64,000 nt of DNA from the NCBI GenBank assembly GCA_030604825.1, contig JAUVVB010000001.1:56702-120701 (forward strand), given 5' to 3'. Each line of letters starts with the position of its first letter. Within the stretch, counting starts at the first letter, position 1. This DNA comes from Chloroflexota bacterium (lineage in GTDB: Bacteria > Chloroflexota > Dehalococcoidia > E44-bin15). The position numbers were made by a program, and so were the translations under genes. The notes under the pieces were generated by a model. It did no database searches, was not told the origin of the DNA, and worked only from the letters and a program-made list of their open reading frames with translations. Shown here piece by piece: positions 38,410 through 64,000 of the stretch.

Positions 38410-38543
38410 AATTGGGTTATATGATGGTTAGAACGCGCACAGTTCGTCCCACCCCAGGGGCAGAGCGCCTTTCAGCCTCTCTATCCGTTTACGTAGATTA
38501 TTAACCCTTTTTCCCCATCGTTTCCCTTAGTTGTGGGTCGAGG

Positions 38544-42631: not shown

Positions 42632-42660
42632 AGAGGACCTCCTTGAGAAACCCTGCCTTC

Positions 42661-42760
42661 ATCCATTGTGCCTGAGAGTAGTCTCTATGTTTTTAACTAT
42701 CTCAGCGCCTACTTTTTCCCAGTGTAGACTTGCCAGGTGAGTACGGTCAGTATAGAAAGC
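42661..42760 (-). pseudogene. ~100-bp remnant of a second GT4 paralog (internal fragment joined directly to the last ~20 codons)
   Basis: 42661-42720 is about 85% identical to 41515-41575 (...WEKVGAEI(V/A)KN...); 42731-42758 matches 42254-42281 (YTD(R/H)THLA); the intervening ~700 bp of the gene is absent. Confidence 0.55.
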
Positions 42761-43946: not shown

Positions 43947-43997
43947 ACAGCACCTCCCTAAGGAATTTCGCCTACTTTGAAGTACGCCTCCTTAACT

Positions 43998-44918: not shown

Positions 44919-45020
44919 TTATACACCTCCACAATTACCCTTTTGCCCCAAGCCTCTGAGAGCGGCAGGTGGCCCCCTGGTTCTCCCGGTAAATATATTT
45001 GACCCGGGTATCTGCAAAGC

Positions 45021-46562: not shown

Positions 46563-46617
46563 TTAATCAGCCCACCTCGTCTGGCTTATGGCAATGGTTC
46601 CGGCTATCATCCATGCT

Positions 46618-47775: not shown

Positions 47776-47794
47776 CCCACCTCACCCCAATACC

Positions 47795-49267: not shown

Positions 49268-49270
49268 CTC

Positions 49271-50422: not shown

Positions 50423-50431
50423 GAGCCCTCC

Positions 50432-51412: not shown

Positions 51413-51416
51413 CCCG

Positions 51417-52376
51417 TCACCTCCTATTCTCCCGATACCAGCGGACAAAGAGGGGTATGCCCTCCTCTATGCTTACCTTAGGCTCGTAGCCGAGAAGGGC
51501 CTGGGCCTTGGAGATATCAGCCAGGGTGACGGGCACCTCCCCAGATTGTGGTGCCAGGTTCCTGGTCCTGGCCTTCTTGCCCAGGGCTTCTTCGATCAGC
51601 TCGAGGAGATATCTGAGATCCACGGCCTCTCCCCTACCTAGGTTAAAAATGTGGAAGCCTTTTTCCTGTCGGACGAGGGCAGCCTCAAAACCAGCTATGA
51701 TGTCGTCAACATAGGTGTAGTCCCTTTTGGCGGTGCCATCGCCAAAGAGGGTAACCTCCTCCCCCTGATCTACCATTTTGACAAAGCGATGGATGGCCAT
51801 CTCCGGTCTCTGGCGAGGCCCGTACACCGTGAACAATCTGAACACCACAAGGGGCAAGGGGTAAAGGTAGCTATAGGTGCGGCAGAAGAGCTCCGCCGCT
51901 GCCTTGGAGGCGGCATAGGGCGAGATAGGGTAACTCACCTTGGCGTCCTCGTTGAACGGAGCCTTTCCATTGAGGCCGTAGACAGATGACGAGGAGGCGA
52001 AGAGGAACTGCTTGACCCCGGAGGCTCGGCAGGCCTCTAGCAGGTTTATTGTCCCCTTTATATTGACATCTTGGTACAGGAGTGGCTGCTCTAGGGAGGG
52101 CCTGACCCCGGCGCGAGCCGCAAGATGCACCACCGCGCCGATGCCGTTCTCCGAGAAAACATGGCCTAAGAGGAGAGCATCCCGGATGTCCCCCTCTACT
52201 AGCAGGAAGCCATCTTTTTCTCGCAGGGCATGGATATTCTTCCACTTGATGGCCGGGGAGTAAGAATCATCGAAGTTGTCCAACCCCACCACCTGGTACC
52301 CCAGACAGAGCAGCCGCTCCACTAGGTGGGAGCCGATAAAGCCGGCGGCACCGGTGACCAAGACTGCTTTTTTCAC
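51417..52376 (-). CDS. NAD-dependent epimerase/dehydratase (UDP-sugar 4-epimerase-like SDR)
   Basis: VLVTGAAGFIGSHLVERLL Rossmann N-terminus; catalytic YAASK. Confidence 0.8.
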   Translation of the reverse strand: MKKAVLVTGAAGFIGSHLVERLLCLGYQVVGLDNFDDSYSPAIKWKNIHALREKDGFLLVEGDIRDALLLGHVFSENGIGAVVHLAARAGVRPSLEQPLLYQDVNIKGTINLLEACRASGVKQFLFASSSSVYGLNGKAPFNEDAKVSYPISPYAASKAAAELFCRTYSYLYPLPLVVFRLFTVYGPRQRPEMAIHRFVKMVDQGEEVTLFGDGTAKRDYTYVDDIIAGFEAALVRQEKGFHIFNLGRGEAVDLRYLLELIEEALGKKARTRNLAPQSGEVPVTLADISKAQALLGYEPKVSIEEGIPLFVRWYRENRR

Positions 52377-53353
52377 GTCTCCTTCCCCTGTTCCTCTGTC
52401 CCCTCCTCGTCCTCTTCCTTCTCCTTTAGTCTGGGTGTAGTGGCTGGTGACGGGCGAGCGTACCTGCTCAGGCCTTTGAAGTTCAACCCCACCCAGGCAA
52501 AACCTACGCCAAACACAGCCCCCATTATCAGGGCGTTTCGACCCCTTATCTTGTCCGGGGGCACCAAAGTTGGAGCTGAGGGGTCTCCGATGATAAGGCG
52601 ACCGAGCACCTCCGGCTCGACGGGATCGGCGGTGGACAACGATACCAGTTGGGCGGACAAGGTATCGAGTTCTCTTTGTAGCGCCCTGACCCTAGCATCG
52701 GTCATGACATAGGCTACGTCCAGCTCGAGCAGGTCGGCGTCCACGAGCCCGTCAACCCCGGTTTGCGTCGCCAGGTCAGCGAGCTCGTTTCTGGCTTCAA
52801 CCAGGTCGGCACTGACGCTGCCGAACCTCGCCTTCACGTACTGGTACTCTTTCTGCTGCAGATCGCGTTCTTCCGCCGTCAAATAATCCTGGAAGACCTG
52901 CGGTGCGATGCCAGCGAGAAAGAAAGCCTCGCCCTCGCTGGGGCTGGTCATCCTCACAGAGACAAGGGGGTTGTCGCTTGAGTATTCGTATCTAACTCTC
53001 ATCATTTCCTCCAGCTCCTGGAGGGTGTGAGAATACCGGGGGGCCAGAACCTCCACCTCATGGCTGAAGAACTCAAGGAAAGAAGAGGTGCCCATCTTGG
53101 CGGCGTAGTACTCTCCTTCATATTGGAGGCTTTTCACACTCCTGTAATACGAGCCGGGGGGCATGAGTTCGAGGGTCACTGTGCTTTCGTAGAGGTCAGG
53201 CGGGCTATTGAAGTGAATGGGTGGCCATCCCATTTCGGCTTCGGCATTTATAGGGCTGATGTGCCAATAGCCCAGGCCCAACAGACCCCCCACGATAAGC
53301 CCCAGCAACAAAATCAAAATCGAGCGGCGGCTGAAAAACGGAACCATGTTCAC
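52373..53353 (-). CDS. wzz: polysaccharide chain-length determinant (Wzz/PCP) protein
   Basis: N- and C-terminal TM helices (ILILLLGLIVGGLLGL...; ALIMGAVFGVGFAWVGL) flanking a coiled-coil periplasmic region. Confidence 0.7.
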   Translation of the reverse strand: MNMVPFFSRRSILILLLGLIVGGLLGLGYWHISPINAEAEMGWPPIHFNSPPDLYESTVTLELMPPGSYYRSVKSLQYEGEYYAAKMGTSSFLEFFSHEVEVLAPRYSHTLQELEEMMRVRYEYSSDNPLVSVRMTSPSEGEAFFLAGIAPQVFQDYLTAEERDLQQKEYQYVKARFGSVSADLVEARNELADLATQTGVDGLVDADLLELDVAYVMTDARVRALQRELDTLSAQLVSLSTADPVEPEVLGRLIIGDPSAPTLVPPDKIRGRNALIMGAVFGVGFAWVGLNFKGLSRYARPSPATTPRLKEKEEDEEGTEEQGKET

Positions 53354-53360
53354 TACCTCC

Positions 53361-54488
53361 TCACACTTCTAGTTTACTTGCCTCCAGACCGAACTCGGAA
53401 AAGTCCCGAAAGCAGTCACAGACATAGCCTATTTCCTCGGCGGTGAGCTCAGGGTACATGGGAAGGGAGAGTATCTCCCCGCTAACCTCCTCGGTGACGG
53501 GCAAAAAGGCATCGTTGCCGCAATAGCCTCGGCAGGCCTCCTGCAAATGGATGGGGATAGGGTAATGTATTCCTGTGGCTACGCCTTTGGCTTCCAGCCA
53601 GGCGCGAAGCTGGTCACGGTTTGGGGTTCTGATGACATAGAGATGGTAGACATGCTTGGCCCAGGGCATCTGCTGTGGTTTGGTCACCGATGAGGGCAGG
53701 CCTGCCTCATAGGCCTGGGCAAGGCTGCGCCGCCTTTCGTTCCACTCATCCAGGTGGGGGAGCTTTACCCTGAGCACAGCAGCCTGGATCTCGTCAAGGC
53801 GGCCATTAACCCCCAACAGATGGTGATGATATTTGGCATCCTGGCCATGGTCTCGCAGCATCTTGGACTTCCTGGCTATATCGGGGTCGGAGGTTACCAT
53901 CATTCCTGCCTCGCCATAGGCCCCCAGGTTCTTGGTGAAATAGAAGCTGAAACATCCGACATCCCCCAGGGAACCGGTGCGGCACCCTTGGCATTCAGCA
54001 CCATGGGCCTGACAGGCATCCTCGATAACCTTGAGGTTGTAAGTTCGGGCCAGCTCCAAGATGGGCCCCATGTCGGCGGGGTGCCCATATAGATGGACGG
54101 GGAGGATGGCCCTGGTCCTGGCGGTGATCCTACTTTCTATCTGGGAGGGGTCCATGTTATAAGTGTGGGGGTCGATGTCGACGAAGACGGGCCTGGCCCC
54201 CACCAGGGCTATGGCTTCGACGGTGGCAAAGAAGGTATGGGAAACAGTGATCACCTCATCCCCTGGCCCCACCCCACAGGCGCGCAGGGCTAGGTGCAGG
54301 GCTTCGGTCCCCGAGCCCACGCCGATGGCAAATTCGGTGCCACAGTAGCGGGCGAACTCGGCCTCCAACGCCTGAACATTCTGGCCCAGGAAGAGCTGCA
54401 TTCCTTCCAGAGCCTCACCTATCCCAGCCAGAACCTCTGCTCTAATGGCCTGATACTGTTTCTTTAGGTCAACGAAGGGTATAAACAT
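53361..54488 (-). CDS. DegT/DnrJ/EryC1/StrS PLP-dependent sugar aminotransferase (WbpE-like)
   Basis: 375 aa; CFSFYFTKNLGAYGEAGMMV (PLP-Lys region). Confidence 0.8.
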   Translation of the reverse strand: MFIPFVDLKKQYQAIRAEVLAGIGEALEGMQLFLGQNVQALEAEFARYCGTEFAIGVGSGTEALHLALRACGVGPGDEVITVSHTFFATVEAIALVGARPVFVDIDPHTYNMDPSQIESRITARTRAILPVHLYGHPADMGPILELARTYNLKVIEDACQAHGAECQGCRTGSLGDVGCFSFYFTKNLGAYGEAGMMVTSDPDIARKSKMLRDHGQDAKYHHHLLGVNGRLDEIQAAVLRVKLPHLDEWNERRRSLAQAYEAGLPSSVTKPQQMPWAKHVYHLYVIRTPNRDQLRAWLEAKGVATGIHYPIPIHLQEACRGYCGNDAFLPVTEEVSGEILSLPMYPELTAEEIGYVCDCFRDFSEFGLEASKLEV

Positions 54489-55140
54489 CTTTTAACCTCT
54501 CTATGAGATGGCTGTAGGGCTTGTCCCTAAGGCCGTTGGTACAAACCAAGTCCTCTATCCTGCCCCTGACCTGAGCCGGGTTGCCGTAGGCCACTGCCCC
54601 AGGCGGGATGTCTTCGGTGACCACGCTTCCGGCGCCAATCAGGGCATATTCTCCTATAGTGACTCGAGGGAGCACGCAAACATTGATGCCGATCTGAGCC
54701 CCCCTTTTGATAAGGGGACCTCTCATGCACTCCGCGGCATCGGGGCACCCGGGGTGAAGATCATTAGCTAGGATAACGCCAGGCCCTAAAAAGGCATCGT
54801 CCTCGATAGTGGTGAACTGAGTGATATAGACATTGTGATGGATCTTGACGTTATTCCCTATCCTGCAGCCGTAGTCGATGGTGGAGTTGCTCCAGATGCG
54901 GAGGTTATCTCCGACGAGGTTTTGCTCCCTGATGACCACATTGTGGCCGGTTTCCAGATTGCAGCCGATGCAGCTGCCGCCATAGATAACGGTGCCACTC
55001 CGAATACGGGCGCTGGGCCCGATGATGAGCAGGTGGTCGTCGCCCTGGGCCGGAGGGTAGCCGAGAACCACCCCCAAATCGATCACCGCACCTTCCCCTA
55101 ACCGTACCGCAGAGCTATTTTGCCTTTGACCTTTCATCAA
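54469..55140 (-). CDS. hexapeptide-repeat sugar N-acetyltransferase (WbpD/PglD-like)
   Basis: Left-handed beta-helix repeats (IGNNVKIHHNVYI..., IGINVCVLPRVTIGEYALIGAGSVV). Confidence 0.75.
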   Translation of the reverse strand: MMKGQRQNSSAVRLGEGAVIDLGVVLGYPPAQGDDHLLIIGPSARIRSGTVIYGGSCIGCNLETGHNVVIREQNLVGDNLRIWSNSTIDYGCRIGNNVKIHHNVYITQFTTIEDDAFLGPGVILANDLHPGCPDAAECMRGPLIKRGAQIGINVCVLPRVTIGEYALIGAGSVVTEDIPPGAVAYGNPAQVRGRIEDLVCTNGLRDKPYSHLIERLKDVYTLR

Positions 55141-56198
55141 CGTTTCCCCTGAATAAGCTTTGCTGAACAGCCCTCAGCAATAGCCATAGTCGAGGGCAGC
55201 TTCTCTCGCCGGCCTCCGTTCAAAAGGGACCTATTTGCTGCTTCTAGGATATTGACTATCTTGAGCCCCGCCCAGCCATCGCTCCTGGGCCTCTTGCCTT
55301 CAGTTATGCACTGCAAGAAGTGGCTGCACTCCAACTTCAAAGGCTCGGCATTGGAAATGAAGGGGATGGTCACATCGCCGTGGCGATAACTGGGGGGCCA
55401 GGCGGCGAACTTATCAGCGTTGGCGGGAATGGCTACTCCCTTATCGTAGATGCGTATCTTTTCCGCCTCCGACACGTCGTCATAGATCACCATCTTCTTG
55501 CTGCCGACGATGGTGATCTGGCGCACCTTACAGGGGTCAAGCCAGCTCACGTGCAAATGGGCCAGGGCCTCGCCGGGGAATCTGAGCTCCAGATAGGCCA
55601 CATCGTAAACAGCGGCGTCGATATGGCCCCCTCCCCTGGCGCTTACTGTGATGGGTTCCCCATCCAGCAGGGCAACCACGATACAGATGTCGTGGGGGGC
55701 CAGGTCCCAGAGGACATTGACGTCAGGACGGAACAGGCCCAGATTGAGCCGGGCAGCATCGATATAGTAGATCTCTCCCAGCTCCCCGCTCTTCACCAGT
55801 TGCCGCAGGAAGTCCACGGCTGGATGATATTCATAGGTATGCCCTACCATCAGCACCCGGTTTCGCTTCTCGGCCAGCTCAATGAGCTCCACCGCCTCCC
55901 GGCTGCTGGCAGTTATGGGCTTTTCCACCAGGACATGCTTATCGTGGAGCAGTGCCTCCCTGGTCAGACGATAGTGGGAGCAGACCGGGGTGGCTACTAC
56001 CACGGCGTCCACATCGCCCTTAAGCAGGTCCCCGAAGTCGGAGGTAGTCACCACATAGGGATATTGCCTTCGGACCTGTTCGAGCCTGTCCTGCTCGAGG
56101 TCACAGACCATGGTCACGTTTGCCCCCGCCAGCTCGTGAAAATTCCTGACGTGCTTCGGCCCCCAATAGCCGCAACCGACGATGCCCACATTAACCAT
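55137..56198 (-). CDS. Gfo/Idh/MocA-family UDP-sugar oxidoreductase (WbpB-like)
   Basis: VNVGIVGCGYWGPKHVRNF N-terminal Rossmann fold; 353 aa. Confidence 0.75.
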   Translation of the reverse strand: MVNVGIVGCGYWGPKHVRNFHELAGANVTMVCDLEQDRLEQVRRQYPYVVTTSDFGDLLKGDVDAVVVATPVCSHYRLTREALLHDKHVLVEKPITASSREAVELIELAEKRNRVLMVGHTYEYHPAVDFLRQLVKSGELGEIYYIDAARLNLGLFRPDVNVLWDLAPHDICIVVALLDGEPITVSARGGGHIDAAVYDVAYLELRFPGEALAHLHVSWLDPCKVRQITIVGSKKMVIYDDVSEAEKIRIYDKGVAIPANADKFAAWPPSYRHGDVTIPFISNAEPLKLECSHFLQCITEGKRPRSDGWAGLKIVNILEAANRSLLNGGRREKLPSTMAIAEGCSAKLIQGKR

Positions 56199-56889
56199 CT
56201 CGCATCTCCTTTAGCTCTCGGTAGCTGCCGTCCCTCCCCAGGACGGTGCCCACGGTTAGCAACATGATTTTGCCGTCCAGAAGCGGCGACTGCCTCTCTA
56301 CGTAGTCGATATCGAGGCGCACCATTTGGTCAAAGGAAAGGCCAGCCCGCCCACATACCTGCCATAGCCCCGTGATGCCCGGTTTGACTGAAAACCTCTT
56401 TTTGTGCCAATCTTCATACAGCTCCACAGCGAAGGGAATATCCGGTCTGGGGCCGACAAAGGACATCTCTCCCTTCAGCATGTTGAAAAGCTGGGGAAGC
56501 TCATCTAGGTTGGTCTTGCGCAGCAAAGCACCCACTCGGGTCACCCGCGGATCATCAGCGACCTTATACACCGGCCGCCCTTGGCGGTCTACTCCATAGG
56601 GGACACCTTGGGTGATAAGCCTCCTCAAATATGCCTTGTAATCGCTGTCGTCGTTATTCACATGCATGGTCCGGAATTTGTAAGCGGTGAATCTGCGACC
56701 GTCCTTCCCCACCCGCTCCTGGGCGAATATCGGACTTCCAGGCGAATCGACCCTGATCCCGATTGCTAGTAGAGCCAGGAGCGGGGATAAAACCACTATG
56801 CCCAGCACCGCCAGCAAACGGTCAAAGACACCCTTCCAGCAGGAATAGGCAAATAGGCGGCGAACTCCTTTGCCCTCTAGGATGGCCAT
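56191..56889 (-). CDS. undecaprenyl-phosphate sugar phosphotransferase (initiating bacterial sugar transferase, PglC/WbaP C-terminal type)
   Basis: N-terminal TM then [15 protein letters not shown]...GPRP...[22 protein letters not shown]-like motifs. Confidence 0.8.
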   Translation of the reverse strand: [232 protein letters not shown]

Positions 56890-57022
56890 ATGTTCAGACT
56901 CCCCTTTCGGTCCACTAGGGCTGCTACCGCCAGGGCATCCACCAGGTGGCTGCCAATGAATCCGGCCCCGCCGGTAACCAAGATCTTCTTTCCCGCTAGT
57001 TTCATCGCTTTTACTCGCTGGC

Positions 57023-58405
57023 TTAGCTTTGAATCGACTCTACCGCTTCCAATTCTAGCTGGATTTTGTGCTTGACCAACGCTGCCTTTGGCTGCTTACG
57101 GCTGATCTCTCCACGGCCCACACCCTCGTATATGAACCCTGCTTTAATCATCTGCTCGGGGTCATAGAGGTTGCGACCATCAATGAGGATGGGGCAGTTC
57201 ATCGAAGAACTGATCCTTCTCATATCTAGCTCTTTGAACTCATCCCACTCGGTAACCAGTATGAGGGCGTCGCTGCCCTCGGCTACTTCATAAGCGTCAG
57301 CACAATAGGTCACCGTGGGCATGAGTTTAGCTGCAGTCTTCATCGCTACCGGGTCGTAGGCTTTTATTCGGCAGCCTTGCTCCTGGAGGAGAGAAATGAC
57401 CGACAGTGATGAGGCCTCGCGCATATCGTCCGAATTGGGCTTGAAAGAAAGCCCCAGGATGCCGACGGTCTTGCCTTTTGTCGAGCCGAGCAGCTTTTGA
57501 AGCTTTGCCACCACCATTCGAGGTTGGCGAAGGTTGACCCTGAGCACTGAGCGAATCAGTGGGGCAGAGACCCCCCGGCTTGCCGCCATATAGATTAGAC
57601 CCCTTACATCCTTGGGCAAACAGCTACCACCCCATCCCAAACCCGCCCCCAGATAGCCGTCACCACATCGAGGTTCCATACCAACTACCCTGGCCACATC
57701 CACAACGTTGACTCCCAACTTGTCGCAAAGTAAGGCAATTTCATTGATAAAGCTGATCCTGGCAGCAAGGAAGGCATTTGACGCATACTTAGACAACTCC
57801 GCGGTCCGAGCATCGCACAGGATAATGGGGCAACCCAATGGCTCATAGAGCTGGGCCACGGCCTGAGCAGCGTTCACATCTGCTGAACCCACAACCACCC
57901 GGATGGGATGGAGGAAGTCGAAGACCGCCAAGCCCTCCCGTAAGAACTCGGGATTGGATACTACAGCAAAATTGTGGTTGCTCCGCTTGTAGCGGGCAAT
58001 TATTCCAGCCACAAGGTCAGCAGTGCCTACCGGCACCGTACTCTTGTTGACCACAATGATGGGTCCGTTGGCTGCCTCGGCGATGCCCCTGGCCGCTGAG
58101 CGTACCCATCTCAGGTCAGGTCTTCCGTTTCTGGTCGATGGTGTGCCCACAGCAATAAAGACGAATTCACTACCGTCTAACCCTTGTTCATAGTCGCTGG
58201 TCAGGCGTAACCTTCCCCCTGCCCAGTGGCGTTGCCAAAGCTCAGGCAGGTCTGGCTCGTGAACCGGCAACACCCCCTGCTCCAGGGCATTTAACCTCTC
58301 ACCATCGATCTCCAACAGGGTTACCCGATGGCCGAGTTCAGCGAAACAGGCCGCTGTGACCAGGCCTACGTATCCTGCTCCGATAACGCTGATACTTTTC
58401 ACCAT
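57023..58405 (-). CDS. UDP-N-acetyl-D-glucosamine/mannosamine 6-dehydrogenase (WbpA/WecC family)
   Basis: Start moved to ATG 58405 (MVKSISVIGAGYVGL) behind GGAGGT; catalytic GGSCLPKD; the track ORF extends 20 codons upstream and would overlap the next gene. Confidence 0.8.
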   Translation of the reverse strand: MVKSISVIGAGYVGLVTAACFAELGHRVTLLEIDGERLNALEQGVLPVHEPDLPELWQRHWAGGRLRLTSDYEQGLDGSEFVFIAVGTPSTRNGRPDLRWVRSAARGIAEAANGPIIVVNKSTVPVGTADLVAGIIARYKRSNHNFAVVSNPEFLREGLAVFDFLHPIRVVVGSADVNAAQAVAQLYEPLGCPIILCDARTAELSKYASNAFLAARISFINEIALLCDKLGVNVVDVARVVGMEPRCGDGYLGAGLGWGGSCLPKDVRGLIYMAASRGVSAPLIRSVLRVNLRQPRMVVAKLQKLLGSTKGKTVGILGLSFKPNSDDMREASSLSVISLLQEQGCRIKAYDPVAMKTAAKLMPTVTYCADAYEVAEGSDALILVTEWDEFKELDMRRISSSMNCPILIDGRNLYDPEQMIKAGFIYEGVGRGEISRKQPKAALVKHKIQLELEAVESIQS

Positions 58406-58434
58406 CTCTATACCTCCAACATAGCCTGCCCAAG

Positions 58435-61020
58435 TTATTCGACGGAAAGCTTTCCCCTCCTCCACGCCTGGAGGAAGATGCTCACCACTTGGGGATCGAA
58501 GCGCCGCCCCGAATCAGCAGCAATCTCCTTTACCGCCGCCTCCGGGTCTAACGCCCCCAGAGGCGACCGCCCCGAGGTCATGGCATCAAAGGCATCGGCG
58601 ATAGCTAGAATCTTCGCTCCCAATGGAATCTCCCCACCCTTTAGGCCGGAGGGGTAACCGGTGCCGTCATATCTCTCATACATGTGCGAGGCGAGCGACA
58701 AGGCCGGCGCCAGAAAGTCAACCCGTGACAGCGCCTCTTCCATAGCGGCCAGGCGTTCTCTCAGCCTAGCCCACCGCTCAGCAGTGAGCCGCCTCCTCCC
58801 ATCAAGCACCTCCTGAGAAGCTGAAGCAAGGCCCAGATCCTTAAGCAAGGCGGCATAGTGGAGTGCCTGCCGTTCACCTCCGAGTAGCTTGAGGTCGGTA
58901 GCGATCGCCGGAGCATACCTTGACACCCGTCGGCCGCTATCCAAGTCAAAGAGATACCTCGCCCGTACCGACTTGGCGATCTCCCCGGTGAGGACCAGCA
59001 TAGCCTCCAAGGCGGCAAGCTGCTCGACCTCCTGCTCGAGGATGCGGTCTTGCTGCCTTTCCAGATCGCTACTGAGGTCGTCCGCCAGGAGCAAAGCGCG
59101 ATTACAGAGCACTTCGAGCTCTCGCACCCTGCAGTCGATGGTCTCTAGCCTTTCAACCAAGGCCGATGACACTTGCTCTCCGGTCGACGACAGCAGATAG
59201 CGAATATCCTTGAGCTCGGCCCGCGCCGCCTGGCCACTCCTCTCGTGCTCAGATTGCAGGCGGTTGATTCGCTCCACCCCGCTCCGCCACCTTTTGGGGA
59301 CAAAGACGGTGAAAACTGTCCCTTCCTCTTGCCCGCTTTTAACCTCAACCTTGCCCCCCAAGCCCTGCACCAATACCATGGCTAGGTGGAGAGCGTTTCT
59401 TCGGCCACCACCGATCATGCCCTCCCCTTGAGCCCGAAAGAGCATTGCCAGTTCGGGTGGGGGGATGTGGCGATTGCGGTTGATGATCTCCACGGCGATA
59501 AAGCCCTCCCTCGCCTCGGAGACGCTCACCAGCAGCCGGTCGCCAGGCGCACTTGACTCAACTTCGCTTCTCAATAGATAGAATAGACCCTGAGTAAGAC
59601 TCCTTTCATCCACTATCAGCTGGCTGATGTCCTCAGCCCCTTGGGTATCAACCTCCACCCCCCTCTCCTCAGCCAGTCCCTGCACCAGCTCCATAACCTG
59701 GTCAAGGGTCTTTTTGAGGTCCACCTCATCCAAAGTGGTCCCAACTGCACCCCCCTCGACCCATTCCAGGCTCTCGAGTTCCTTGAGGGTGCCCAGGAGT
59801 TGCCCGGTGCTCTCTTTAATCGATTCCAAGCTGCTCACCTGCTGGGAGTCCAAATTCTCAACCCGGCCCCTGAGTAGTGAGTCCACACAACCCCTTATCC
59901 CGTTGATCGGCGCTTCCACTTCCCTGGCCACAAAGGTGATCCACGCCAACGCCCCCTGCATCGCCCTCAGCTCTTCTCGATATGAGGATGGTATACCTTT
60001 GGGGGCGAGGGGCGGTTGTGCCCCAATATCGTTCTGTCGCTGGTCAAAGCGATAGTTATTACCGGGAAGGCGCTTGATATAATCTAGTAGCTCGGCAGCT
60101 ATCTCGTTGGCCTGCAGATAACTGTCGATTCTCCGCCTCTCGTTGGTAACCACCGCGATGGAAAGGGTCATGATCGGCCACTGCTCCCGCTGACCCAATC
60201 GGCCATCGTATTCGATGTAGCCCCGCTGTAAGTCCTTGGGGTGGTACAGGGTCCTGATACGGCTATCGAACGCGGCGATAATCCGCTGACAGAGAGTTTG
60301 CGCCCTTTGGGGCGTGGTGATAACTACGAAATCATCGCCATCCCGGTGTCCCACCAAATCATCTGGATTGCCAAACAGGCGCGCCGCCTCACGCAGTATC
60401 TCAGCCAGAAGCCGGATTGCGCGGTCACCTTGAGCGAAGCCATACACATCGTTGAAAGCCTTGAGAGAATCCATGTCCACATACATGACAGCCAAGGGCT
60501 TATTCTGTCCGATCAAGGCATTGATCTCGGTATTTATCTGGGGGCTGCTCGGCAACCCGCTCAGCCGATTTACGTTTTTCTCCTGCTCTGCTCGTCTTAA
60601 GTGGGCTTCTACCAAAGCCACGACCTCAGCAGGGGCGAAGGGTTTGGTGATATAATCCTCAGCCCCCACAGCTATGCCTGCTATGATATCCTTGCTCTCC
60701 ACCTTAGCACTGATCATTATCACCGGGATCTGGCTGGTCTGTCGGCTCTGCTTTAGGCGCCAGCAAACGTCAAGGCCGTCCAGATCGGGAAGCACTACAT
60801 CGAGCAGGATCAAATCCGGCCTCTCGCTAGAGGCCTTAGCCAAAGCCTGGATCCCATTCACCGCTGAGAGAACCTCGAAATTGGCATGCCGCAAGTTTGC
60901 CTCCAAGATTTGAATTACCCCTGGGTCATCATCGACCACCAGGATAGTCCTTCCCGTTCGGTTTATGGCGCCGCCCGTCATACCAATGCCTCTTTGACTT
61001 CTTCCCCGCCAAACCCCCAT
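58435..61020 (-). CDS. multidomain signalling protein: REC - degenerate GGDEF - degenerate HisKA/HATPase-like core - coiled coil - degenerate HD-GYP
   Basis: REC intact (DD, LILLDVVLPDLDG, MISAK, YITKPF). GGDEF region YVDMDSLKAFNDVYGFAQGD...GHRDGDDFVV (DGDDF instead of GGEEF). Middle AREVEAPINGIRG (no His) and HATPase-like blocks. C-terminus ALLKDLG...SHMYERYDGTGYPSGL...ADAFDAMTSGR (KD instead of HD). Confidence 0.7.
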   Translation of the reverse strand: MGVWRGRSQRGIGMTGGAINRTGRTILVVDDDPGVIQILEANLRHANFEVLSAVNGIQALAKASSERPDLILLDVVLPDLDGLDVCWRLKQSRQTSQIPVIMISAKVESKDIIAGIAVGAEDYITKPFAPAEVVALVEAHLRRAEQEKNVNRLSGLPSSPQINTEINALIGQNKPLAVMYVDMDSLKAFNDVYGFAQGDRAIRLLAEILREAARLFGNPDDLVGHRDGDDFVVITTPQRAQTLCQRIIAAFDSRIRTLYHPKDLQRGYIEYDGRLGQREQWPIMTLSIAVVTNERRRIDSYLQANEIAAELLDYIKRLPGNNYRFDQRQNDIGAQPPLAPKGIPSSYREELRAMQGALAWITFVAREVEAPINGIRGCVDSLLRGRVENLDSQQVSSLESIKESTGQLLGTLKELESLEWVEGGAVGTTLDEVDLKKTLDQVMELVQGLAEERGVEVDTQGAEDISQLIVDERSLTQGLFYLLRSEVESSAPGDRLLVSVSEAREGFIAVEIINRNRHIPPPELAMLFRAQGEGMIGGGRRNALHLAMVLVQGLGGKVEVKSGQEEGTVFTVFVPKRWRSGVERINRLQSEHERSGQAARAELKDIRYLLSSTGEQVSSALVERLETIDCRVRELEVLCNRALLLADDLSSDLERQQDRILEQEVEQLAALEAMLVLTGEIAKSVRARYLFDLDSGRRVSRYAPAIATDLKLLGGERQALHYAALLKDLGLASASQEVLDGRRRLTAERWARLRERLAAMEEALSRVDFLAPALSLASHMYERYDGTGYPSGLKGGEIPLGAKILAIADAFDAMTSGRSPLGALDPEAAVKEIAADSGRRFDPQVVSIFLQAWRRGKLSVE

Positions 61021-61057
61021 GCCAACTTTGTTGGCTTTGTTAGTCTAACAGAGACGT

Positions 61058-61098
61058 GTTAGAACGGAGTTGGAGCTTGGTCAGAAAAACGTTAGAAT
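61058..61098 (+). promoter_or_regulatory. two GTTAGAA boxes 33 bp apart (plus an inverted TCTAAC at 61044) near the 5' end of the divergent signalling gene
   Basis: GTTAGAAC at 61058-61065, GTTAGAAT at 61091-61098. Confidence 0.4.
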
Positions 61099-61192
61099 TT
61101 GGGACTTCAGTACTAGAGGGCAGGATTCAGCAGGGTGACCTGCTTGACAAATCAAAACGGTACCACATGCAGCGACACTCCATGACGAGGTT

Positions 61193-61256
61193 GGTTAGAG
61201 CAGGTTAGAAAGAGGTTAGAAAAAGGTTACAACCTTTAGAATTTAACGGTTAGAAT
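61193..61256 (+). promoter_or_regulatory. array of 5-6 direct repeats GGTTAGA(A/G) phased at 10-11 bp, upstream of the OmpR-type response regulator gene
   Basis: GGTTAGAG 61193, GGTTAGAA 61203, GGTTAGAA 61214, GGTTACAA 61225, TTAGAA 61236, GGTTAGAA 61249; same 7+4 architecture as 38544-38584. Confidence 0.55.
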
Positions 61257-61299
61257 TTAGGGATTCATAACAAGTTTATCCGATTTTGGATAGTGGGGA

Positions 61300-61328
61300 T
61301 TGACAAATACGAATTCGGTATCTATGAT
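61300..61328 (+). promoter_or_regulatory. candidate sigma70-type promoter of the response-regulator/histidine-kinase operon
   Basis: TTGACA (61300-61305), 17-nt spacer, TATGAT (61323-61328); lies 44 bp downstream of the repeat array and 185 bp upstream of the ATG. Confidence 0.45.
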
Positions 61329-61513
61329 TTGTTGTGCATTGCCAGTGTAAAGTTAGTGCATTGATTTCACTTTCTGCTGGCTGCTTTCGTACACGTCGCT
61401 GAGACGTGTCCTTCCTACCAGGGTGGCCTACGGCAGTTAATCCCCAGGGCCCTCTGCCTATGTGAAAGGCGCCTCCGCATCAACGAGGACGTTAGCACGT
61501 CTAGCGTCTTACC

Positions 61514-62233
61514 TTGGCTGCAGCAATACCGAGAGGGATTGATACTATGAAGGAGAAGATCCTGGTGATCGACGATGACCCCGAGCTTTTGGGCTTGGCT
61601 CAGAACTGGCTGCAAAATGCCGGATACGAGGCGCTCATCGCAGAAGACGGGATTGAGGGGCTTCGTCAGGTGTATAGCGCTCGTCCCCATCTAGTGCTCC
61701 TGGATATCCGCATGGCGCGCATGGATGGTTGGGAGGTCTGTCGCCGCATTCGGGAGATGTGCGACATGCCCATCATCATGGTAAGCGTGAACGGGGAAAA
61801 AGCCGATTTGCTCCGGGCATTCAACCTTGGTGTCGATGACTACGTTACCAAACCCTTTCACTTCCCGGAGTTGATAGCCCGGGTGCAAGCTGTTCTGCGC
61901 CGGTCCAGTGCCAGTTGGCCACAGGATAATAACAGCACCTTCCACAACGAGGAAATAGATATAGATTGGCGAAGCCGCCAGGTGTGGGTTCGAGGGCAGC
62001 GAGTGGCGGTTTCGCCCACGGAGTTCCGGCTGTTGTCTTGCTTGATTGAGAACCGGGGCTGGATTGTTACCCATGATGAGCTGTTGCGGAAGGTGTGGGG
62101 GCCGAACTACTTCGGCGAGAGAAGCTACGTCAAGCTATACATTAGATACTTGCGCCAGAAAATAGAGAGAGACCCTAGCAACCCGGAGTGGATCTTAACC
62201 GAAAGGGGTGTAGGATACCGATTCTCGACCTAG
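61514..62233 (+). CDS. OmpR/PhoB-family response regulator (REC + winged-helix)
   Basis: ILVIDDDPELL, LVLLDIRMARMDG, IIMVSVNG, DYVTKPF; C-terminal winged helix (...YVKLYIRYLRQKIE...RGVGYRF). Confidence 0.85.
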   Translation: MAAAIPRGIDTMKEKILVIDDDPELLGLAQNWLQNAGYEALIAEDGIEGLRQVYSARPHLVLLDIRMARMDGWEVCRRIREMCDMPIIMVSVNGEKADLLRAFNLGVDDYVTKPFHFPELIARVQAVLRRSSASWPQDNNSTFHNEEIDIDWRSRQVWVRGQRVAVSPTEFRLLSCLIENRGWIVTHDELLRKVWGPNYFGERSYVKLYIRYLRQKIERDPSNPEWILTERGVGYRFST

Positions 62234-62267: not shown

Positions 62268-64000
62268 ATGGTAAGGCAAGCATCATCTAATCGGGCGCCC
62301 AAAGTTGGTAGTGGGGCTGACTCGGGGCAGGAGGTGGGGTTGAAAGGGGTTGACTTTGCTCGGCTTCGGGCAGAGCGGACACCCTCAGAGGAGATGCCTC
62401 CGTCTGGTTACCCACCGGACATGTTGGGGCGGCAACTAACCCTCCTCAAGGTGATCAGCAGCCAGCTGGTCGGCGATCCCTCAGCGGAGGAGCTGGCGCA
62501 GGCGGCGTTTCTGCTGAGATATGTGATTCCGGGGATCGATAAGTGCTTCCTGCTCCTTTTCAATCCTATGGAGCAGCTCCTTCTCCCAGAGGCTGCGGCT
62601 CATTTCTCCCCCGAATTCGTTTCCGCCTTGATCCAGGCTGAGCGGAGAACGCGTCTTCTGACCGCAGCCGCCGAGCAAGCAAACCAATCGCTGGTAATCG
62701 ATCTTCCCAGTACCCGGCGGTTCGGCCCTTTATGGAGATTGGCCCGAGGGGAGGGTATAGAGTCTCTGTGGTTGATTCCACTGCGTGACAGGGATGGCAG
62801 TCTGTTAGGCTCAATCGTATTCGCCTCCTGCCAAGCCTTCTCCCCTACCAGCCATGCTTTGGCCCTGGCGACGCTCCTAGCTGACTGGATGGCAGTGGCG
62901 CTTGAGAAGGCGGAGACCCGACGAGATAGCGAAAGGTTCAAAGCTGCTTTCGACAGCGCTGGCGATGCCATGATGATCGTTGACGGCGACCGGAGGATAG
63001 TCGCCTTCAACCATGCCTCAGAGAAGTTAACCGGGTGGCAGGGAGAGCAGGCTGTGGGGCAGCATTGCTGGGAGATCTACCTTTGTGGTAACGGCAGCAC
63101 CGCGGGGCAGAGGGGCTATCCCTGCCCGATGGCAGGTAAGCAGGAATGCACCTTCACCAGCAGGGAGGGGAAAGAGGTCGCTGTGTCCATGAGCCACGCA
63201 CCATTGTCCTCCCCACCATATCATGAAGAAGGACACCAGATCGTCATTGTGCGCCACATCCCCCTTCAAAAACAGAGGAGGGGCACCAAGCCGGATGTCA
63301 TTGCCGCGGTGTCTCACGAGTTGCTCTCTCCTCTCACCTTGATCAAGGGGTATGCTGCCACCTTGTTACAACTTGGTGAAACCATCACCGAGGAGCAGAG
63401 GAGACAGTATTTTCGAGGCATTGAATCCGCTACCAGCCGACTAACTCGGTTAGCGGAGAACTTGGTAAATGTCTCCCGTCTCGAGGCTGGCCACCTCGAC
63501 CTCGCCGTCGAACCCACTTCCCTACCCGGGCTGCTACGGAAGAGCGTGACTGAAGTGCAGGGCCAGACCACTCAGCATGTAGTTAAACTCTTCCTGCCTC
63601 GCTCCTTGCCCCTGGTTTATGTTGACCGCCAGAAGATCGAGCAGGTGATAATGAATCTTCTAGTCAACGCGGTGAAATACTCGCCGCACGGGGGTGATAT
63701 CGAGGTTTCGGTAAAGCAGGTCCGGGATGAAGAGGAGCTGGTGGCAATTTGGGGAGAGGCATCTTGGGTAAAGCCCCCCTGCTTGATTGTGGCGGTTAGG
63801 GATTCGGGGGTGGGCATACCTGAGGATGAGCTGGAGCGGGTTTTTGAGAAGTATTACCGCGTGGACAACAGATTGATTCGCGCTACCTCAGGAGCAGGCC
63901 TAGGCCTTTATATTTGTAAGGTTATCGTGGAGGCCCACGGCGGTCATATCTGGGCGAGAAGCAAGGTGGGGGAGGGCAGCACCTTCAGCTTTTCCCTGCC
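62268..64000 (+). CDS. sensor histidine kinase (GAF-like + PAS + HisKA + HATPase_c), 3'-partial, runs off window end
   Basis: Open frame (codon phase 0) from ATG 62268 to the window end, so absent from the ORF track; H-box AAVSHELLSPLTLIKGY, N-box NLLVNAVKYSPHGG, G1 VRDSGVGIPEDE, G2 GAGLGLYICK; PAS segment carries a Cys cluster. Confidence 0.8.
   Translation, partial: MVRQASSNRAPKVGSGADSGQEVGLKGVDFARLRAERTPSEEMPPSGYPPDMLGRQLTLLKVISSQLVGDPSAEELAQAAFLLRYVIPGIDKCFLLLFNPMEQLLLPEAAAHFSPEFVSALIQAERRTRLLTAAAEQANQSLVIDLPSTRRFGPLWRLARGEGIESLWLIPLRDRDGSLLGSIVFASCQAFSPTSHALALATLLADWMAVALEKAETRRDSERFKAAFDSAGDAMMIVDGDRRIVAFNHASEKLTGWQGEQAVGQHCWEIYLCGNGSTAGQRGYPCPMAGKQECTFTSREGKEVAVSMSHAPLSSPPYHEEGHQIVIVRHIPLQKQRRGTKPDVIAAVSHELLSPLTLIKGYAATLLQLGETITEEQRRQYFRGIESATSRLTRLAENLVNVSRLEAGHLDLAVEPTSLPGLLRKSVTEVQGQTTQHVVKLFLPRSLPLVYVDRQKIEQVIMNLLVNAVKYSPHGGDIEVSVKQVRDEEELVAIWGEASWVKPPCLIVAVRDSGVGIPEDELERVFEKYYRVDNRLIRATSGAGLGLYICKVIVEAHGGHIWARSKVGEGSTFSFSL

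What the first reader, a model, noticed from the sequence alone, without database searches (positions are those of the whole stretch)
61021..61513. Pho-box-like array of GGTTAGA direct repeats upstream of the response-regulator/kinase operon
The intergenic region between the divergent degenerate c-di-GMP protein gene (minus strand, start 61020) and the OmpR-family response regulator gene (plus strand, 61514) carries at least seven copies of a GTTAGAA core. Five or six form a head-to-tail array at 61193-61256 with 10/11/11-bp spacing (GGTTAGAGca GGTTAGAAaga GGTTAGAAaaa GGTTACAAcct ..TTAGAAtttaac GGTTAGAAttt). A 7-bp box plus 4-bp spacer at one helical turn is the binding-site architecture of PhoB/OmpR-family winged-helix regulators. 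The array ends 44 bp upstream of a good TTGACA-17-TATGAT promoter, a class-I activator position, which points to autoregulation of the adjacent response-regulator/histidine-kinase operon. The same boxes recur at 38.5 kb (separate finding), which defines a small regulon. I know of no described regulator with a GGTTAGA box, so this looks like an uncharacterised regulatory system.
Basis: partly seen in the sequence, partly recalled or inferred. Interest (0 to 1): 0.75.

Follow-up and report, generated by a model that had tools for sequence, protein, structure and literature searches.

The report
Response-regulator binding boxes flanking polysaccharide operon
The GGTTAGAA repeats are real and conserved, and they are most likely the DNA sites through which a neighbouring, so far unstudied two-component regulator of Chloroflexota controls itself, a large cell-surface polysaccharide operon and the lipid-carrier gene bacA; this is a sound new example of a familiar kind of bacterial switch.

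Summary
GGTTAGAA-type boxes at about 11-bp spacing occupy 61193-61255, four more lie at 61058-61097, and the same boxes recur near 38.4-38.6 kb. Such chains occur 3 times in the window against 0.06 in shuffles.

They are not a dispersed repeat. In nine non-redundant loci (12 fetched) whose OmpR-family regulator is 67-88% identical, GTTAGA is the top-ranked hexamer of the equivalent intergenic region. It occurs 46 times on the regulator's strand and 2 on the other. It is absent as arrays from 568 kb around 80 paralogous regulators.

The region holds two operators:
- **Operator A (61058-61097).** Read on the minus strand, it is four boxes in strict 11-bp register, then 10 nt, then a TAnnnT -10 with no -35. 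This is Pho-box geometry, conserved in all 10 loci, and it heads the divergent REC-GGDEF-HD-GYP plus roughly 20-kb Wzx/Wzy polysaccharide operon. The same composite precedes bacA.
- **Operator B (the finding).** It sits 42-55 bp upstream of a consensus TTGACA-17-TATGAT promoter for the regulator/kinase operon. This points to autoregulation, but its sign is unresolved.

The regulator fails every curated family cut-off (PhoB, KdpE, RpaB and others), and I found no published GGTTAGA regulator. Verdict: a new member of a known kind, supported only by comparative evidence.

The parts
61193..61255 (+). Operator B (the finding). Six GGTTAGAA-type boxes at 61193, 61203, 61214, 61225, 61234 and 61248, read in the direction of the regulator gene. 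It is an expanded version of a two-box site found in relatives.
   Evidence: Sequence. TRF period 11. The last exact box starts 42 or 51-55 bp upstream of the -35 in 9 of 10 loci. No minus-strand -10 follows it.
61288..61295 (+). Degenerate promoter-proximal box GGATAGTG (5 of 8 matches), starting 12 bp upstream of the -35.
   Evidence: A box scoring at least 5 of 8 starts 12-16 bp upstream of the -35 in 8 of 10 loci, and at least 6 of 8 in 5 of 10. Background frequencies are 0.20 and 0.035.
61300..61328 (+). Predicted sigma-70-type promoter of the regulator/kinase operon: TTGACA, 17 nt, TATGAT.
   Evidence: Promoter scan, 11 of 12 matches. TTGAC(A/T), 17-18 nt, TAnnnT is present at the equivalent place in all 10 loci.
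61329..61546 (+). Long untranslated leader of the regulator gene (about 210 nt). It carries the hairpin ACACGTC-n5-GACGTGT at 61391-61409.
   Evidence: The distance from the -10 to the start codon is 130-442 nt in all loci. Consensus fold of three close relatives. No Rfam match.
61058..61097 (-). Operator A. Four boxes in strict 11-bp register. On the minus strand: TTCTAAC, TTCTGAC, CTCCAAC, TTCTAAC. On the plus strand: GTTAGAA 61058, GTTGGAG 61069, GTCAGAA 61080, GTTAGAA 61091.
   Evidence: Same four-box composite, with the same position-specific degeneracy, in all 10 loci.
61042..61047 (-). Predicted -10 hexamer TAGACT of the divergent operon. It lies exactly 10 nt downstream of operator A, with no -35.
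   Evidence: A TAnnnT hexamer at this fixed offset in 10 of 10 loci. The composite has 0 hits in 568 kb of paralogue loci.
61547..62233 (+). OmpR/PhoB-family response regulator (receiver domain plus winged-helix domain), 228 aa. The proposed binder of the boxes.
   Evidence: Pfam Response_reg and Trans_reg_C. Below every NCBIfam equivalog cut-off. The stretch YVKLY-RYLR-KIE, which by position should hold the recognition helix, is the same in all 12 fetched orthologous loci.
62268..64000 (+). Cognate histidine kinase with GAF, PAS, HisKA and HATPase domains. No membrane-associated domain was detected by Pfam; transmembrane segments were not specifically predicted. It runs off the window, and its start is uncertain.
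   Evidence: Translation. Pfam. Orthologues sit directly after the regulator gene.
58435..61020 (-). First gene of the divergent operon: receiver domain, partial GGDEF, HisKA/HATPase and HD-GYP (HD_5) domains, 861 aa.
   Evidence: Pfam. The same divergent arrangement is found in most orthologous loci.
41501..58465 (-). Co-oriented Wzx/Wzy-type polysaccharide cluster downstream of that gene. It encodes UDP-sugar 6-dehydrogenase, Bac_transf, GFO/IDH/MocA oxidoreductase, hexapeptide acetyltransferase, DegT aminotransferase, epimerase, several GT4 enzymes, Wzy_C and a Polysacc_synt_3 flippase.
   Evidence: ORF list. Pfam.
38394..38433 (-). bacA-proximal operator. Four boxes in 11-bp register on the minus strand: TTCTAAC, ATATAAC, TTTTGAC, TTACAAC.
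   Evidence: Relaxed array scan. Composite view and scan, 22 of 28.
38378..38383 (-). Predicted -10 hexamer TACACT of bacA. It lies 10 nt downstream of the proximal operator and 43 nt before the GTG start at 38334.
   Evidence: The 270-aa BacA start is confirmed by an identical protein on record.
38544..38584 (-). bacA-distal array. Four boxes (GGTTAGAA, GGTTAAGG, GGTTAGAA, GGTTAGAA) read towards bacA, about 110 bp upstream of the proximal operator. Role unclear; possibly an auxiliary high-affinity site.
   Evidence: Sequence. TRF. Chains. No promoter-like site nearby.
37522..38334 (-). bacA/uppP, undecaprenyl-diphosphate phosphatase (270 aa).
   Evidence: Pfam BacA. Homologues named undecaprenyl-diphosphatase.

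Best explanation
The GGTTAGAA boxes are most likely the half-sites recognised by the winged-helix domain of the adjacent OmpR/PhoB-family response regulator (61547-62233). Its partner is the GAF-PAS histidine kinase encoded just downstream.

**Proposed binding (inferred).** The phosphorylated regulator binds head-to-tail, one protomer per 11-bp unit.

**Operator A (61058-61097).** It faces the divergent operon. Four boxes (room for two dimers) end 10 nt upstream of a -10 hexamer that has no -35. That is the geometry at which PhoB-type regulators recruit sigma-70. It would therefore activate the REC-GGDEF-HD-GYP gene and the roughly 20-kb polysaccharide operon behind it. The same composite would activate bacA at 38.4 kb.

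**Operator B (61193-61255, the finding).** Together with a weak box abutting the -35, it sits upstream of a near-consensus promoter for the regulator/kinase operon and would give autoregulation. I cannot tell whether this is positive or negative.

**Shown versus inferred.** Shown here: the boxes, their register, and their conservation and specificity across lineages. Inferred: binding by this particular regulator, the transcription start sites, and the direction of control.
For: 1. **Adjacent regulator.** It has receiver and Trans_reg_C domains.
2. **Periodicity.** Box spacings peak at 11, 22 and 33 bp.
3. **Unbiased ranking.** Nine non-redundant orthologous loci (12 fetched), chosen by regulator similarity alone (67-88% identity), were analysed with the window. 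GTTAGA is the top-ranked hexamer of these 10 intergenic regions, and of the 7 most divergent. It occurs 46 times on the regulator's strand against 2 on the other, at 8.5 per kb against 0.34 per kb in the rest of those loci.
4. **Specificity.** No arrays occur in 80 loci (568 kb) around paralogous regulators of 49% identity or less.
5. **Operator A composite.** Four boxes, 10 nt, then TAnnnT, in 10 of 10 loci.
6. **Same composite elsewhere.** It precedes bacA in the window, an epimerase/UDP-glucose-dehydrogenase operon in L212, and further sugar genes in L212 and, weakly (20/28), L210 and L213.
7. **Reverse test.** A DNA-only search for three boxes picked up one Anaerolineae locus (L049). There the composite scores 26 of 28, with -10 TATACT. 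It heads an operon with Bac_transf and Wzz/tyrosine-kinase genes, next to a regulator 49% identical (59% over the C-terminal 78 residues), the closest among 119 pattern hits.
8. **Operator B position.** Its distance to the -35 is conserved, and a proximal box is enriched.
9. **Conserved DNA-binding domain.** The stretch YVKLY-RYLR-KIE, where the recognition helix should lie, is unchanged across orthologues.
Against: - There is no binding or expression data. All evidence is comparative.
- The regulator's own promoter has a consensus -35, so it should not need an activator. Its boxes point the opposite way from those at the Pho-box-type promoters, so the role of the array in the finding is the least certain part.
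- The spacing of operator B to the -35 varies by up to 4 bp within the 51-55 class, which is loose for a face-of-helix activator.
- The bacA site is absent from two relatives.
- Close relatives (window, L202, L205) are not independent observations.
- Only 64 kb of the source genome could be scanned.
Confidence: 0.7

Rival explanations
1. The system is the phosphate-starvation (Pho) two-component system of these Chloroflexota. On this reading the boxes are its PHO boxes, and the operon makes a phosphate-free uronic-acid polymer, as Bacillus subtilis PhoP does with the teichuronic acid (tua) operon.
For: - The Pho-box geometry is met exactly at operator A and at bacA: 8-bp boxes, 3-bp linkers, 10 bp upstream of TAN3T (geometry as described in PMC1906773).
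- The operon carries a UDP-sugar 6-dehydrogenase, Bac_transf, Wzy-like and flippase genes, like tuaA-H. PhoP~P activates tuaA-H (PMC6232261).
- The kinase's best family-level matches are PnpS and PhoR.
- One box in the window, GGTTAAG, reverse-complements to CTTAACC, the core of the cyanobacterial SphR box CTTAACCT.
Against: - The regulator scores 173 bits against the PhoB cut-off of 296, and the kinase 185 against the PhoR cut-off of 334.
- The kinase has a GAF domain and no detected membrane-associated domain.
- No pst, phoU or phosphatase genes appear in the window or in any of the orthologous loci.
- The box differs from every described PHO box.
Confidence: 0.1
2. The boxes are a real regulatory element, but a different DNA-binding protein encoded elsewhere binds them, and their position next to this regulator gene only reflects shared regulation.
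For: - No binding data exist.
- Direct repeats at 11 bp are not unique to OmpR-family proteins.
- In L049 a small zinc-ribbon/HTH protein gene lies directly downstream of the array.
Against: - Arrays co-occur with this regulator orthogroup in every locus and never with paralogues.
- No other DNA-binding gene is conserved in the neighbourhood.
- The pattern-first hit L049 again has a related regulator next to it.
- Self-adjacent operators are the norm for two-component regulators (established knowledge).
Confidence: 0.1
3. Operator B is not an activator site. It either represses the regulator's own strong promoter (negative autoregulation) or acts as an auxiliary upstream site for the divergent promoter.
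For: - The core promoter is consensus TTGACA, 17-18 nt, TAnnnT in all loci, which is typical of repressed rather than activated promoters.
- The boxes are inverted relative to the Pho-box-type promoters.
- A weak box abuts the -35.
- In B. subtilis, PhoP sites on the opposite strand go with repression (from memory; Liu, Eder and Hulett 1998, a reference listed in PMC6232261).
Against: - The boxes do not overlap the -35 or -10.
- The A-to-B distance varies from about 25 to 150 bp, while the B-to-(-35) distance is conserved. This ties B to the regulator's promoter rather than to the divergent one.
- Positive autoregulation is the commoner pattern in this family (established knowledge).
Confidence: 0.3
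4. The array is a non-functional repeat, produced by replication slippage or belonging to a dispersed REP/MITE-like element.
For: - GGTTAGA-N3/4 triplets are common across bacteria as perfect tandem duplications and as dispersed elements in Prevotella and Chitinophaga.
- The window's array B grew from 2 to 6 boxes, some with similar spacers, which suggests slippage.
- The two arrays at 38.4-38.6 kb are in inverted orientation.
Against: - The spacers differ while the cores are kept.
- The same syntenic position, strand and register are kept across regulators only 67-88% identical, although the surrounding DNA has diverged.
- No copies lie in coding sequence, and no longer shared flanks link the two window sites.
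- No match to plasmids or phages.
Confidence: 0.03

Closest known systems
Escherichia coli PhoB / PHO box promoters
   Same: Seven conserved plus four variable nucleotides per 11-bp unit. Tandem head-to-tail units. The array lies 10 bp upstream of a TAN3T -10 and takes the place of the -35 (PMC4415409; PMC1906773). Operator A and the bacA operator have exactly this geometry.
   Different: The box is TTCTAAC(C), not CTGTCAT. There are four units rather than two. The regulator and kinase are below the PhoB and PhoR cut-offs. The targets are polysaccharide genes, not phosphate uptake. The array in the finding (operator B) does not have this geometry.
Bacillus subtilis PhoP core binding site and the tuaA-H (teichuronic acid) operon
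   Same: Four direct repeats at 11-bp periodicity covering about -60 to -20 of promoters that lack a -35 (from memory; Liu and Hulett 1998, a reference listed in PMC6232261). One target is an operon for a uronic-acid wall polymer. The regulator's own operon is autoregulated.
   Different: The repeat is TT(A/T/C)ACA rather than TTCTAAC. A phosphate signal is not indicated here. No sequence-level orthology was shown.
Streptomyces coelicolor PhoP operators (11-nt direct repeat units)
   Same: Operators of two to six or more 11-nt units. Well-conserved 'core' units are flanked by poorly conserved 'extension' units that fill cooperatively (PMC2275107). This resembles two perfect plus two degenerate boxes in operator A, and a strong distal plus a weak proximal box at the regulator's promoter.
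   Different: The core is GTTCAY/GTTCACC rather than GTTAGAA. It belongs to the Pho regulon.
OmpR at ompF/ompC-micF, and cyanobacterial RpaB/HLR1
   Same: The half-site GTTACA differs from GTTAGA by one base, and one window box is GGTTACA. The RpaB motif is (G/T)TTACA(T/A)(T/A) (PMC6525291). In the OmpR system, a hierarchy of strong distal and weak -35-proximal sites is shared between divergent promoters (from memory).
   Different: HLR1 has two repeats with a 2-nt spacer (10-bp period). The RpaB and OmpR equivalog cut-offs are not met (189 against 330; 140 against 331).
KdpE (the name some sources give these proteins)
   Same: KdpE is the best solved-structure match (E 2e-44). The stretch Y-x-K/R-x-Y-x-x-x-LRQK-I/L-E resembles the KdpE recognition helix (the KdpE sequence is recalled from memory; I did not align it here).
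   Different: It scores 163 bits against the 325 cut-off. No kdpFABC or kdpD lies nearby in any locus. KdpE half-sites are AT-rich TTTATA/TTTACA (PMC3264566 abstract).

Membership tests
OmpR/PhoB-family response-regulator operator (generic) | A cognate regulator with a receiver domain and a winged-helix Trans_reg_C domain is encoded nearby. | tested here: met
   Pfam: Response_reg 8e-28, Trans_reg_C 5e-25.
OmpR/PhoB-family response-regulator operator (generic) | At least two direct (not inverted) repeats of about 6-8 conserved bases at 10-11 bp centre-to-centre. | tested here: met
   Spacings of 10, 11 and 11 bp in the window. An 11-bp peak (10 of the spacings), then 22 and 33 bp, across loci. 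46 boxes on one strand against 2 on the other.
OmpR/PhoB-family response-regulator operator (generic) | Sequence-specific binding by the regulator. | not testable with these tools
   Needs EMSA, footprinting or DAP-seq. Only co-occurrence and specificity were tested.
Pho regulon (PhoB/PhoR, PHO box) | The regulator is a PhoB orthologue and the kinase a PhoR orthologue. | tested here: not met
   NCBIfam PhoB 172.8 bits against cut-off 296.2. PhoR 184.9 against 334.2. The kinase has a GAF domain and no detected membrane-associated domain.
Pho regulon (PhoB/PhoR, PHO box) | The box array lies 10 bp upstream of the -10 and replaces the -35. | tested here: met
   Met for operator A in 10 of 10 loci and for bacA. 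Not met for operator B, the array in the finding.
Pho regulon (PhoB/PhoR, PHO box) | The targets are phosphate-acquisition genes (pst, phoA/D/X, phoU). | tested here: inconclusive
   None appear in the window or in any of the 16 related loci fetched by protein look-up. Whole genomes could not be scanned.
KdpD/KdpE | KdpE equivalog score, and adjacency to kdpD and kdpFABC. | tested here: not met
   163.1 bits against cut-off 325. No kdp genes in any locus.
RpaB / HLR1 | RpaB equivalog, and a motif of two (G/T)TTACA(T/A)(T/A) octamers with a 2-nt spacer. | tested here: not met
   188.8 bits against cut-off 330. The box is GTTAGAA at an 11-bp period. Motif definition from PMC6525291.
Dispersed repeat (REP/MITE-like) | Many copies in varied, including coding or non-promoter, contexts, with shared flanks or terminal inverted repeats. 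| tested here: not met
   Only three chains in 64 kb, all intergenic. No longer repeat links 38.5 kb and 61 kb. Single boxes occur at 0.34 per kb elsewhere. No plasmid or phage match.

The most novel reading that the evidence does not exclude
This would be a Chloroflexota-wide, undescribed two-component regulon. A cytoplasmic GAF-PAS kinase would switch on, through Pho-box-geometry promoters, a c-di-GMP signalling protein together with a uronic-acid surface polymer pathway and lipid-carrier recycling. It would be the functional counterpart in Chloroflexota of the B. subtilis PhoP teichuronic-acid switch: a nutrient-driven remodelling of the cell envelope in a phylum whose envelope biology is poorly known.
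Probability: 0.12. Interest if true: 0.65.

Novelty: new member of a known kind. Interest (0 to 1): 0.45.

Why it matters
Almost nothing is known about transcriptional control in Anaerolineae and other largely uncultured Chloroflexota. This finding supplies three things:
- a concrete recognition motif, GGTTAGAA at an 11-bp period;
- a promoter grammar: four boxes, 10 nt, then a -10;
- a coherent predicted regulon: a REC-GGDEF-HD-GYP protein, a Wzx/Wzy polysaccharide cluster, nucleotide-sugar genes and bacA.

The regulator has hundreds of close homologues in metagenomes. The composite pattern is specific enough to be searched genome-wide. It could therefore annotate surface-polymer control, which bears on floc, granule and biofilm formation by these filamentous bacteria, and it gives a ready-made target for EMSA or DAP-seq. 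The mechanism itself is conventional.

Tried and rejected
1. **Three-box scan of genome contigs.** It returned more than 119 hits, but they are dominated by perfect 10- or 11-mer tandem duplications in unrelated phyla and by dispersed elements in Prevotella and Chitinophaga. Only L049 was informative.
2. **Metagenome scan with the regulator protein.** I reused these 80 loci as a negative control.
3. **bacA conservation.** I expected the bacA arrays to be conserved. They are absent in L214 and L216, where bacA follows a small membrane-protein gene.
4. **Operator B as a second minus-strand promoter.** I tested whether it is a second Pho-box-type promoter on the minus strand. No -10 lies at the required offset in any locus.
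5. **Promoter downstream of the distal bacA array (and by eye).** I found none.
6. **Structured RNA.** No Rfam family matches, either at gathering thresholds over the whole window or at E up to 1 over 61000-61600.
7. **Mobile element.** No similarity to plasmids or phages, and no longer repeats.
8. **Literature.** Searches for GGTTAGA and TTCTAACC returned nothing relevant.
9. **L003.** An Anaerolineales triple repeat directly upstream of a membrane-protein ATG looks like a simple tandem duplication, so I did not pursue it.
Full report
**1. What is in the sequence**

The region between the minus-strand gene ending at 61020 and the regulator gene contains the described head-to-tail array. The boxes are:
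- GGTTAGAG at 61193
- GGTTAGAA at 61203
- GGTTAGAA at 61214
- GGTTACAA at 61225
- cTTTAGAA at 61234
- GGTTAGAA at 61248

Four more boxes lie at 61058 (GTTAGAA), 61069 (GTTGGAG), 61080 (GTCAGAA) and 61091 (GTTAGAA), in strict 11-bp register.

A sigma-70-like promoter, TTGACA-17-TATGAT, lies at 61300-61328 (11 of 12 matches).

The regulator most likely starts at ATG 61547. An identical 228-aa protein is on record.

**2. Is it more than chance?**

- The bare heptamer is only mildly enriched in the window: 10 against 5.3.
- GTTAGAA occurs 13 times against 3.6 expected, and no shuffle reaches 13.
- The arrangement is far from random. Chains of exact boxes at one, two or three 11-bp steps occur 3 times against 0.06 in shuffles.
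- Relaxed three-box arrays occur at 11 positions against 0.01.
- All of them fall in two intergenic regions, 61.0-61.3 kb and 38.4-38.6 kb.
- No longer repeat joins the two places.
- The region has no match among plasmids or phages and no Rfam match.

**3. Gene context**

- The regulator has receiver and Trans_reg_C domains.
- The next gene encodes a GAF-PAS-HisKA-HATPase kinase in which Pfam detects no membrane-associated domain. I did not run a transmembrane prediction.
- The divergent gene (58435-61020) encodes a protein with a receiver domain, a partial GGDEF domain, HisKA/HATPase and HD-GYP domains.
- Behind it, down to 41501, every large ORF is on the same strand. Together they form a Wzx/Wzy-type polysaccharide locus: UDP-sugar 6-dehydrogenase, Bac_transf initiating transferase, GFO/IDH/MocA oxidoreductase, hexapeptide acetyltransferase, DegT aminotransferase, epimerase, several GT4 enzymes, a Wzy_C polymerase and a Polysacc_synt_3 flippase.
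- From established pathway knowledge, the dehydrogenase, oxidoreductase, aminotransferase and acetyltransferase set is the one used for di-N-acetylated uronic acid sugars. I did not test this.
- The gene at 37522-38334 is bacA/uppP.

**4. Related sequences**

The regulator has many close homologues (66-89% identity), named only as Chloroflexi/Chloroflexota MAG proteins or, by KO transfer, 'KdpE'.

I fetched 12 loci, 9 of them non-redundant, by exact protein look-up. The regulators are 67-88% identical. Synteny is conserved:
- a divergent gene for a receiver-domain signalling protein (REC with GGDEF and/or HD-GYP in most loci, REC-only in two; ABC-transporter genes instead in L208) plus sugar genes;
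- an intergenic region of 410-700 bp;
- then the regulator and kinase.

The intergenic DNA has diverged, yet the boxes persist. An unbiased ranking of all hexamers puts GTTAGA first. It is present in 10 of 10 regions, and in 7 of 7 of the most divergent ones. Other figures:

| Measure | Value |
|---|---|
| GTTAGA on the regulator's strand | 46 |
| GTTAGA on the other strand | 2 |
| Density in these intergenic regions | 8.5 per kb |
| Density in the rest of these loci | 0.34 per kb |
| Spacing peaks | 11, 22 and 33 bp |

The failed metagenome scan had returned 80 loci (568 kb) around paralogous OmpR-family regulators of 49% identity or less. None of them has a chain, a relaxed triple or the composite described below.

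**5. Operator A is a Pho-box-type promoter for the divergent operon**

Read on the minus strand, the four boxes at 61097-61058 are TTCTAAC, TTCTGAC, CTCCAAC and TTCTAAC, each followed by 4 nt. Then come exactly 10 nt, then TAGACT (plus strand 61042-61047), with no -35.

All 10 loci show the same composite. The -10 hexamers are TAGACT (four loci), TACAGT, TAAACT, TAGATT, TATGAT, TACAAT and TATTCT. A TAnnnT at a fixed offset has a chance of about 1.6% per lineage on a uniform-base estimate, which I did not compute from these sequences.

The position-specific degeneracy is also conserved: box 2 is always CTCCAAC-like.

This is the geometry reported for E. coli PhoB: 8-bp boxes, 3-bp linkers, 10 bp upstream of TAN3T/A (PMC1906773; unit definition in PMC4415409).

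**6. The same composite elsewhere**

A scan for four boxes scoring at least 19 of 28, plus TAnnnT at +10, finds exactly two sites in the window:
- operator A;
- a site upstream of bacA: TTCTAAC, ATATAAC, TTTTGAC, TTACAAC, then 10 nt, then TACACT, then 43 nt to GTG 38334.

In relatives it also finds sites upstream of:
- an epimerase/UDP-glucose-dehydrogenase operon (L212, -10 TATTAT);
- a Bac_transf gene (L212);
- other sugar genes (L210 and L213, weaker).

It also explains L049, the one informative hit of the DNA-only three-box scan. There the composite scores 26 of 28 (-10 TATACT). It heads an operon encoding a zinc-ribbon/HTH protein, a GGDEF-like membrane protein, Bac_transf and a Wzz/tyrosine kinase. 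Next to it lies a kinase/regulator pair whose regulator is 49% identical to the window's, the best among 119 pattern hits.

The predicted regulon is thus consistently surface-glycan synthesis. However, bacA orthologues at 73% and 66% identity lack the arrays, so bacA membership is lineage-specific.

**7. Operator B, the array in the finding**

- Most relatives have two strong boxes here. The window has six and L205 has several, so the long array is a local expansion.
- It is not followed by a minus-strand -10.
- Its distance to operator A varies from about 25 to 150 bp.
- Its last exact box starts 42 or 51-55 bp upstream of the -35 of a TTGAC(A/T), 17-18 nt, TAnnnT promoter in 9 of 10 loci.
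- A further degenerate box starts 12-16 bp upstream of the -35. It scores at least 5 of 8 in 8 of 10 loci and at least 6 of 8 in 5 of 10, against background frequencies of 0.20 and 0.035. In the window it is GGATAGTG at 61288.

Operator B therefore belongs to the regulator's own promoter. That promoter is near-consensus, however, and the boxes point the opposite way from those at the Pho-box-type promoters.

**8. Mechanism I commit to (confidence about 0.7)**

- The regulator, phosphorylated by the GAF-PAS kinase, binds head-to-tail to 11-bp units.
- Two dimers on operator A stand in for the missing -35 and activate the REC-GGDEF-HD-GYP/polysaccharide operon. The same happens at bacA.
- A strong distal dimer site plus a weak proximal box at its own promoter give autoregulation.
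- Shown here: motif, register, conservation, specificity and promoter grammar.
- Inferred: binding by this protein, the start sites and the sign of control.

**9. Comparison with known systems**

In architecture, the nearest systems are:
- E. coli PhoB promoters;
- the four-repeat PhoP core site of B. subtilis, one of whose targets is the teichuronic-acid operon (PMC6232261; the core-site details are from memory);
- the core-plus-extension operators of Streptomyces PhoP (PMC2275107).

In sequence, the box is one base from the OmpR/RpaB half-site GTTACA (PMC6525291). Its reverse complement shares TAACC with the cyanobacterial SphR box CTTAACCT.

Membership fails everywhere it was tested:

| Family model | Score (bits) | Cut-off (bits) |
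|---|---|---|
| YycF | 196 | 340 |
| MtrA | 190 | 300 |
| RpaB | 189 | 330 |
| PhoB | 173 | 296 |
| KdpE | 163 | 325 |
| PhoR (kinase) | 185 | 334 |

No kdp or pst genes are nearby. It works like a PhoB-type system but is not a member of any named one. Literature searches found no regulator with this box. That library is incomplete, so this is absence of evidence only.

**10. Verdict**

It is incomplete about how the region is organised and overconfident about class-I activation.
- Novelty: a new member of a known kind.
- Interest is moderate. This is a clean, testable regulon prediction for a poorly studied phylum, obtained by a conventional mechanism.

Noticed in passing
window 61329-61546: The regulator gene has a long leader (about 210 nt here; 130-442 nt in relatives). 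It contains a hairpin ACACGTC-n5-GACGTGT (61391-61409). L202 keeps it, and L205 has ACATGTC...GACATGT, which is one compensatory pair. CCUUC (61410-61414) is predicted to pair with the Shine-Dalgarno GAGAGGG (61531-61537). GTGCATTG-type repeats lie at about 61336-61365. There is no Rfam match. It could be a translational control element or a palindromic DNA operator.
   Followed up: partly
window 61144-61161 and 61300-61308: TTGACAAAT occurs twice. The upstream copy (cTTGACAAATCAAAACGG) is conserved in L202 but has no recognisable -10. Its function is unknown.
   Followed up: no
window 61021-61035: A perfect hairpin, GCCAAC-ttt-GTTGGC, lies directly 5' of the ATG of the divergent gene, inside its predicted roughly 15-nt leader. 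The scan flagged it as terminator-like on the plus strand. It is not conserved in relatives.
   Followed up: no
window 38410-38864 and 38865-41021: The 718-aa protein upstream of bacA is a beta-helix (Pel9A-like/DUF1565) surface protein. It has Gly/Thr/Pro-rich tandem repeats (38970-39195) and what looks like a C-terminal membrane anchor (not tested). In relatives (L214, L216) a gene for a small 97-128 aa protein sits between such a gene and bacA. The window lacks it and carries the distal GGTTAGAA array there instead.
   Followed up: partly
window 41000-45000: A low-GC block (0.40-0.47 against 0.55-0.60) lies inside the polysaccharide cluster. It holds an ORF with no Pfam hit (42747-43946; a second lies outside the block at 52373-53353). 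Repeats of 76-78% identity link the ends of neighbouring genes (41509-41572 with 42658-42721; 42544-42650 with 43859-43965). This suggests a horizontally acquired or duplicated cassette.
   Followed up: no
L028, L031, L032, L037, L041, L047, L050, L084, L115, L118 (Prevotella/Bacteroidales); L004, L016, L024, L063, L092, L104 (most checked are Chitinophaga barathri): Unrelated dispersed elements also carry GGTTAGA-N4 triplets, several copies per genome. In Prevotella the triplet is followed by an inverted 'catctaaccc'. These look like REP- or MITE-like repeats or mobile-element ends, not the Chloroflexota operator.
   Followed up: no
L025 4789-4870, and L036, L086, L110, L116: An array of five or six GGTTAGAA boxes followed by two inverted boxes (tttctaacc...tctaacc) is conserved across at least two Bacteroidota-type lineages (Balneolaceae, Chitinophagaceae; the other three loci were not identified). 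The neighbouring ORFs have no informative Pfam hits. It may be an iteron- or origin-like element, or another regulator's operator.
   Followed up: partly
L205 7807-7826 (and L206): Two further GTTAGA boxes lie downstream of the regulator's promoter, interleaved with GTGCATG at a 13-bp period, inside the leader. This is a recent local duplication of unknown effect.
   Followed up: no
L207 752-4978: In one relative, the divergent REC/HD-GYP gene is followed not by sugar genes but by two sets of ScmC-like, PqqD and radical-SAM/SPASM genes (peptide-modification clusters). A two-box GGTTAGA site lies at 1785-1801. The regulon content may differ between lineages.
   Followed up: no
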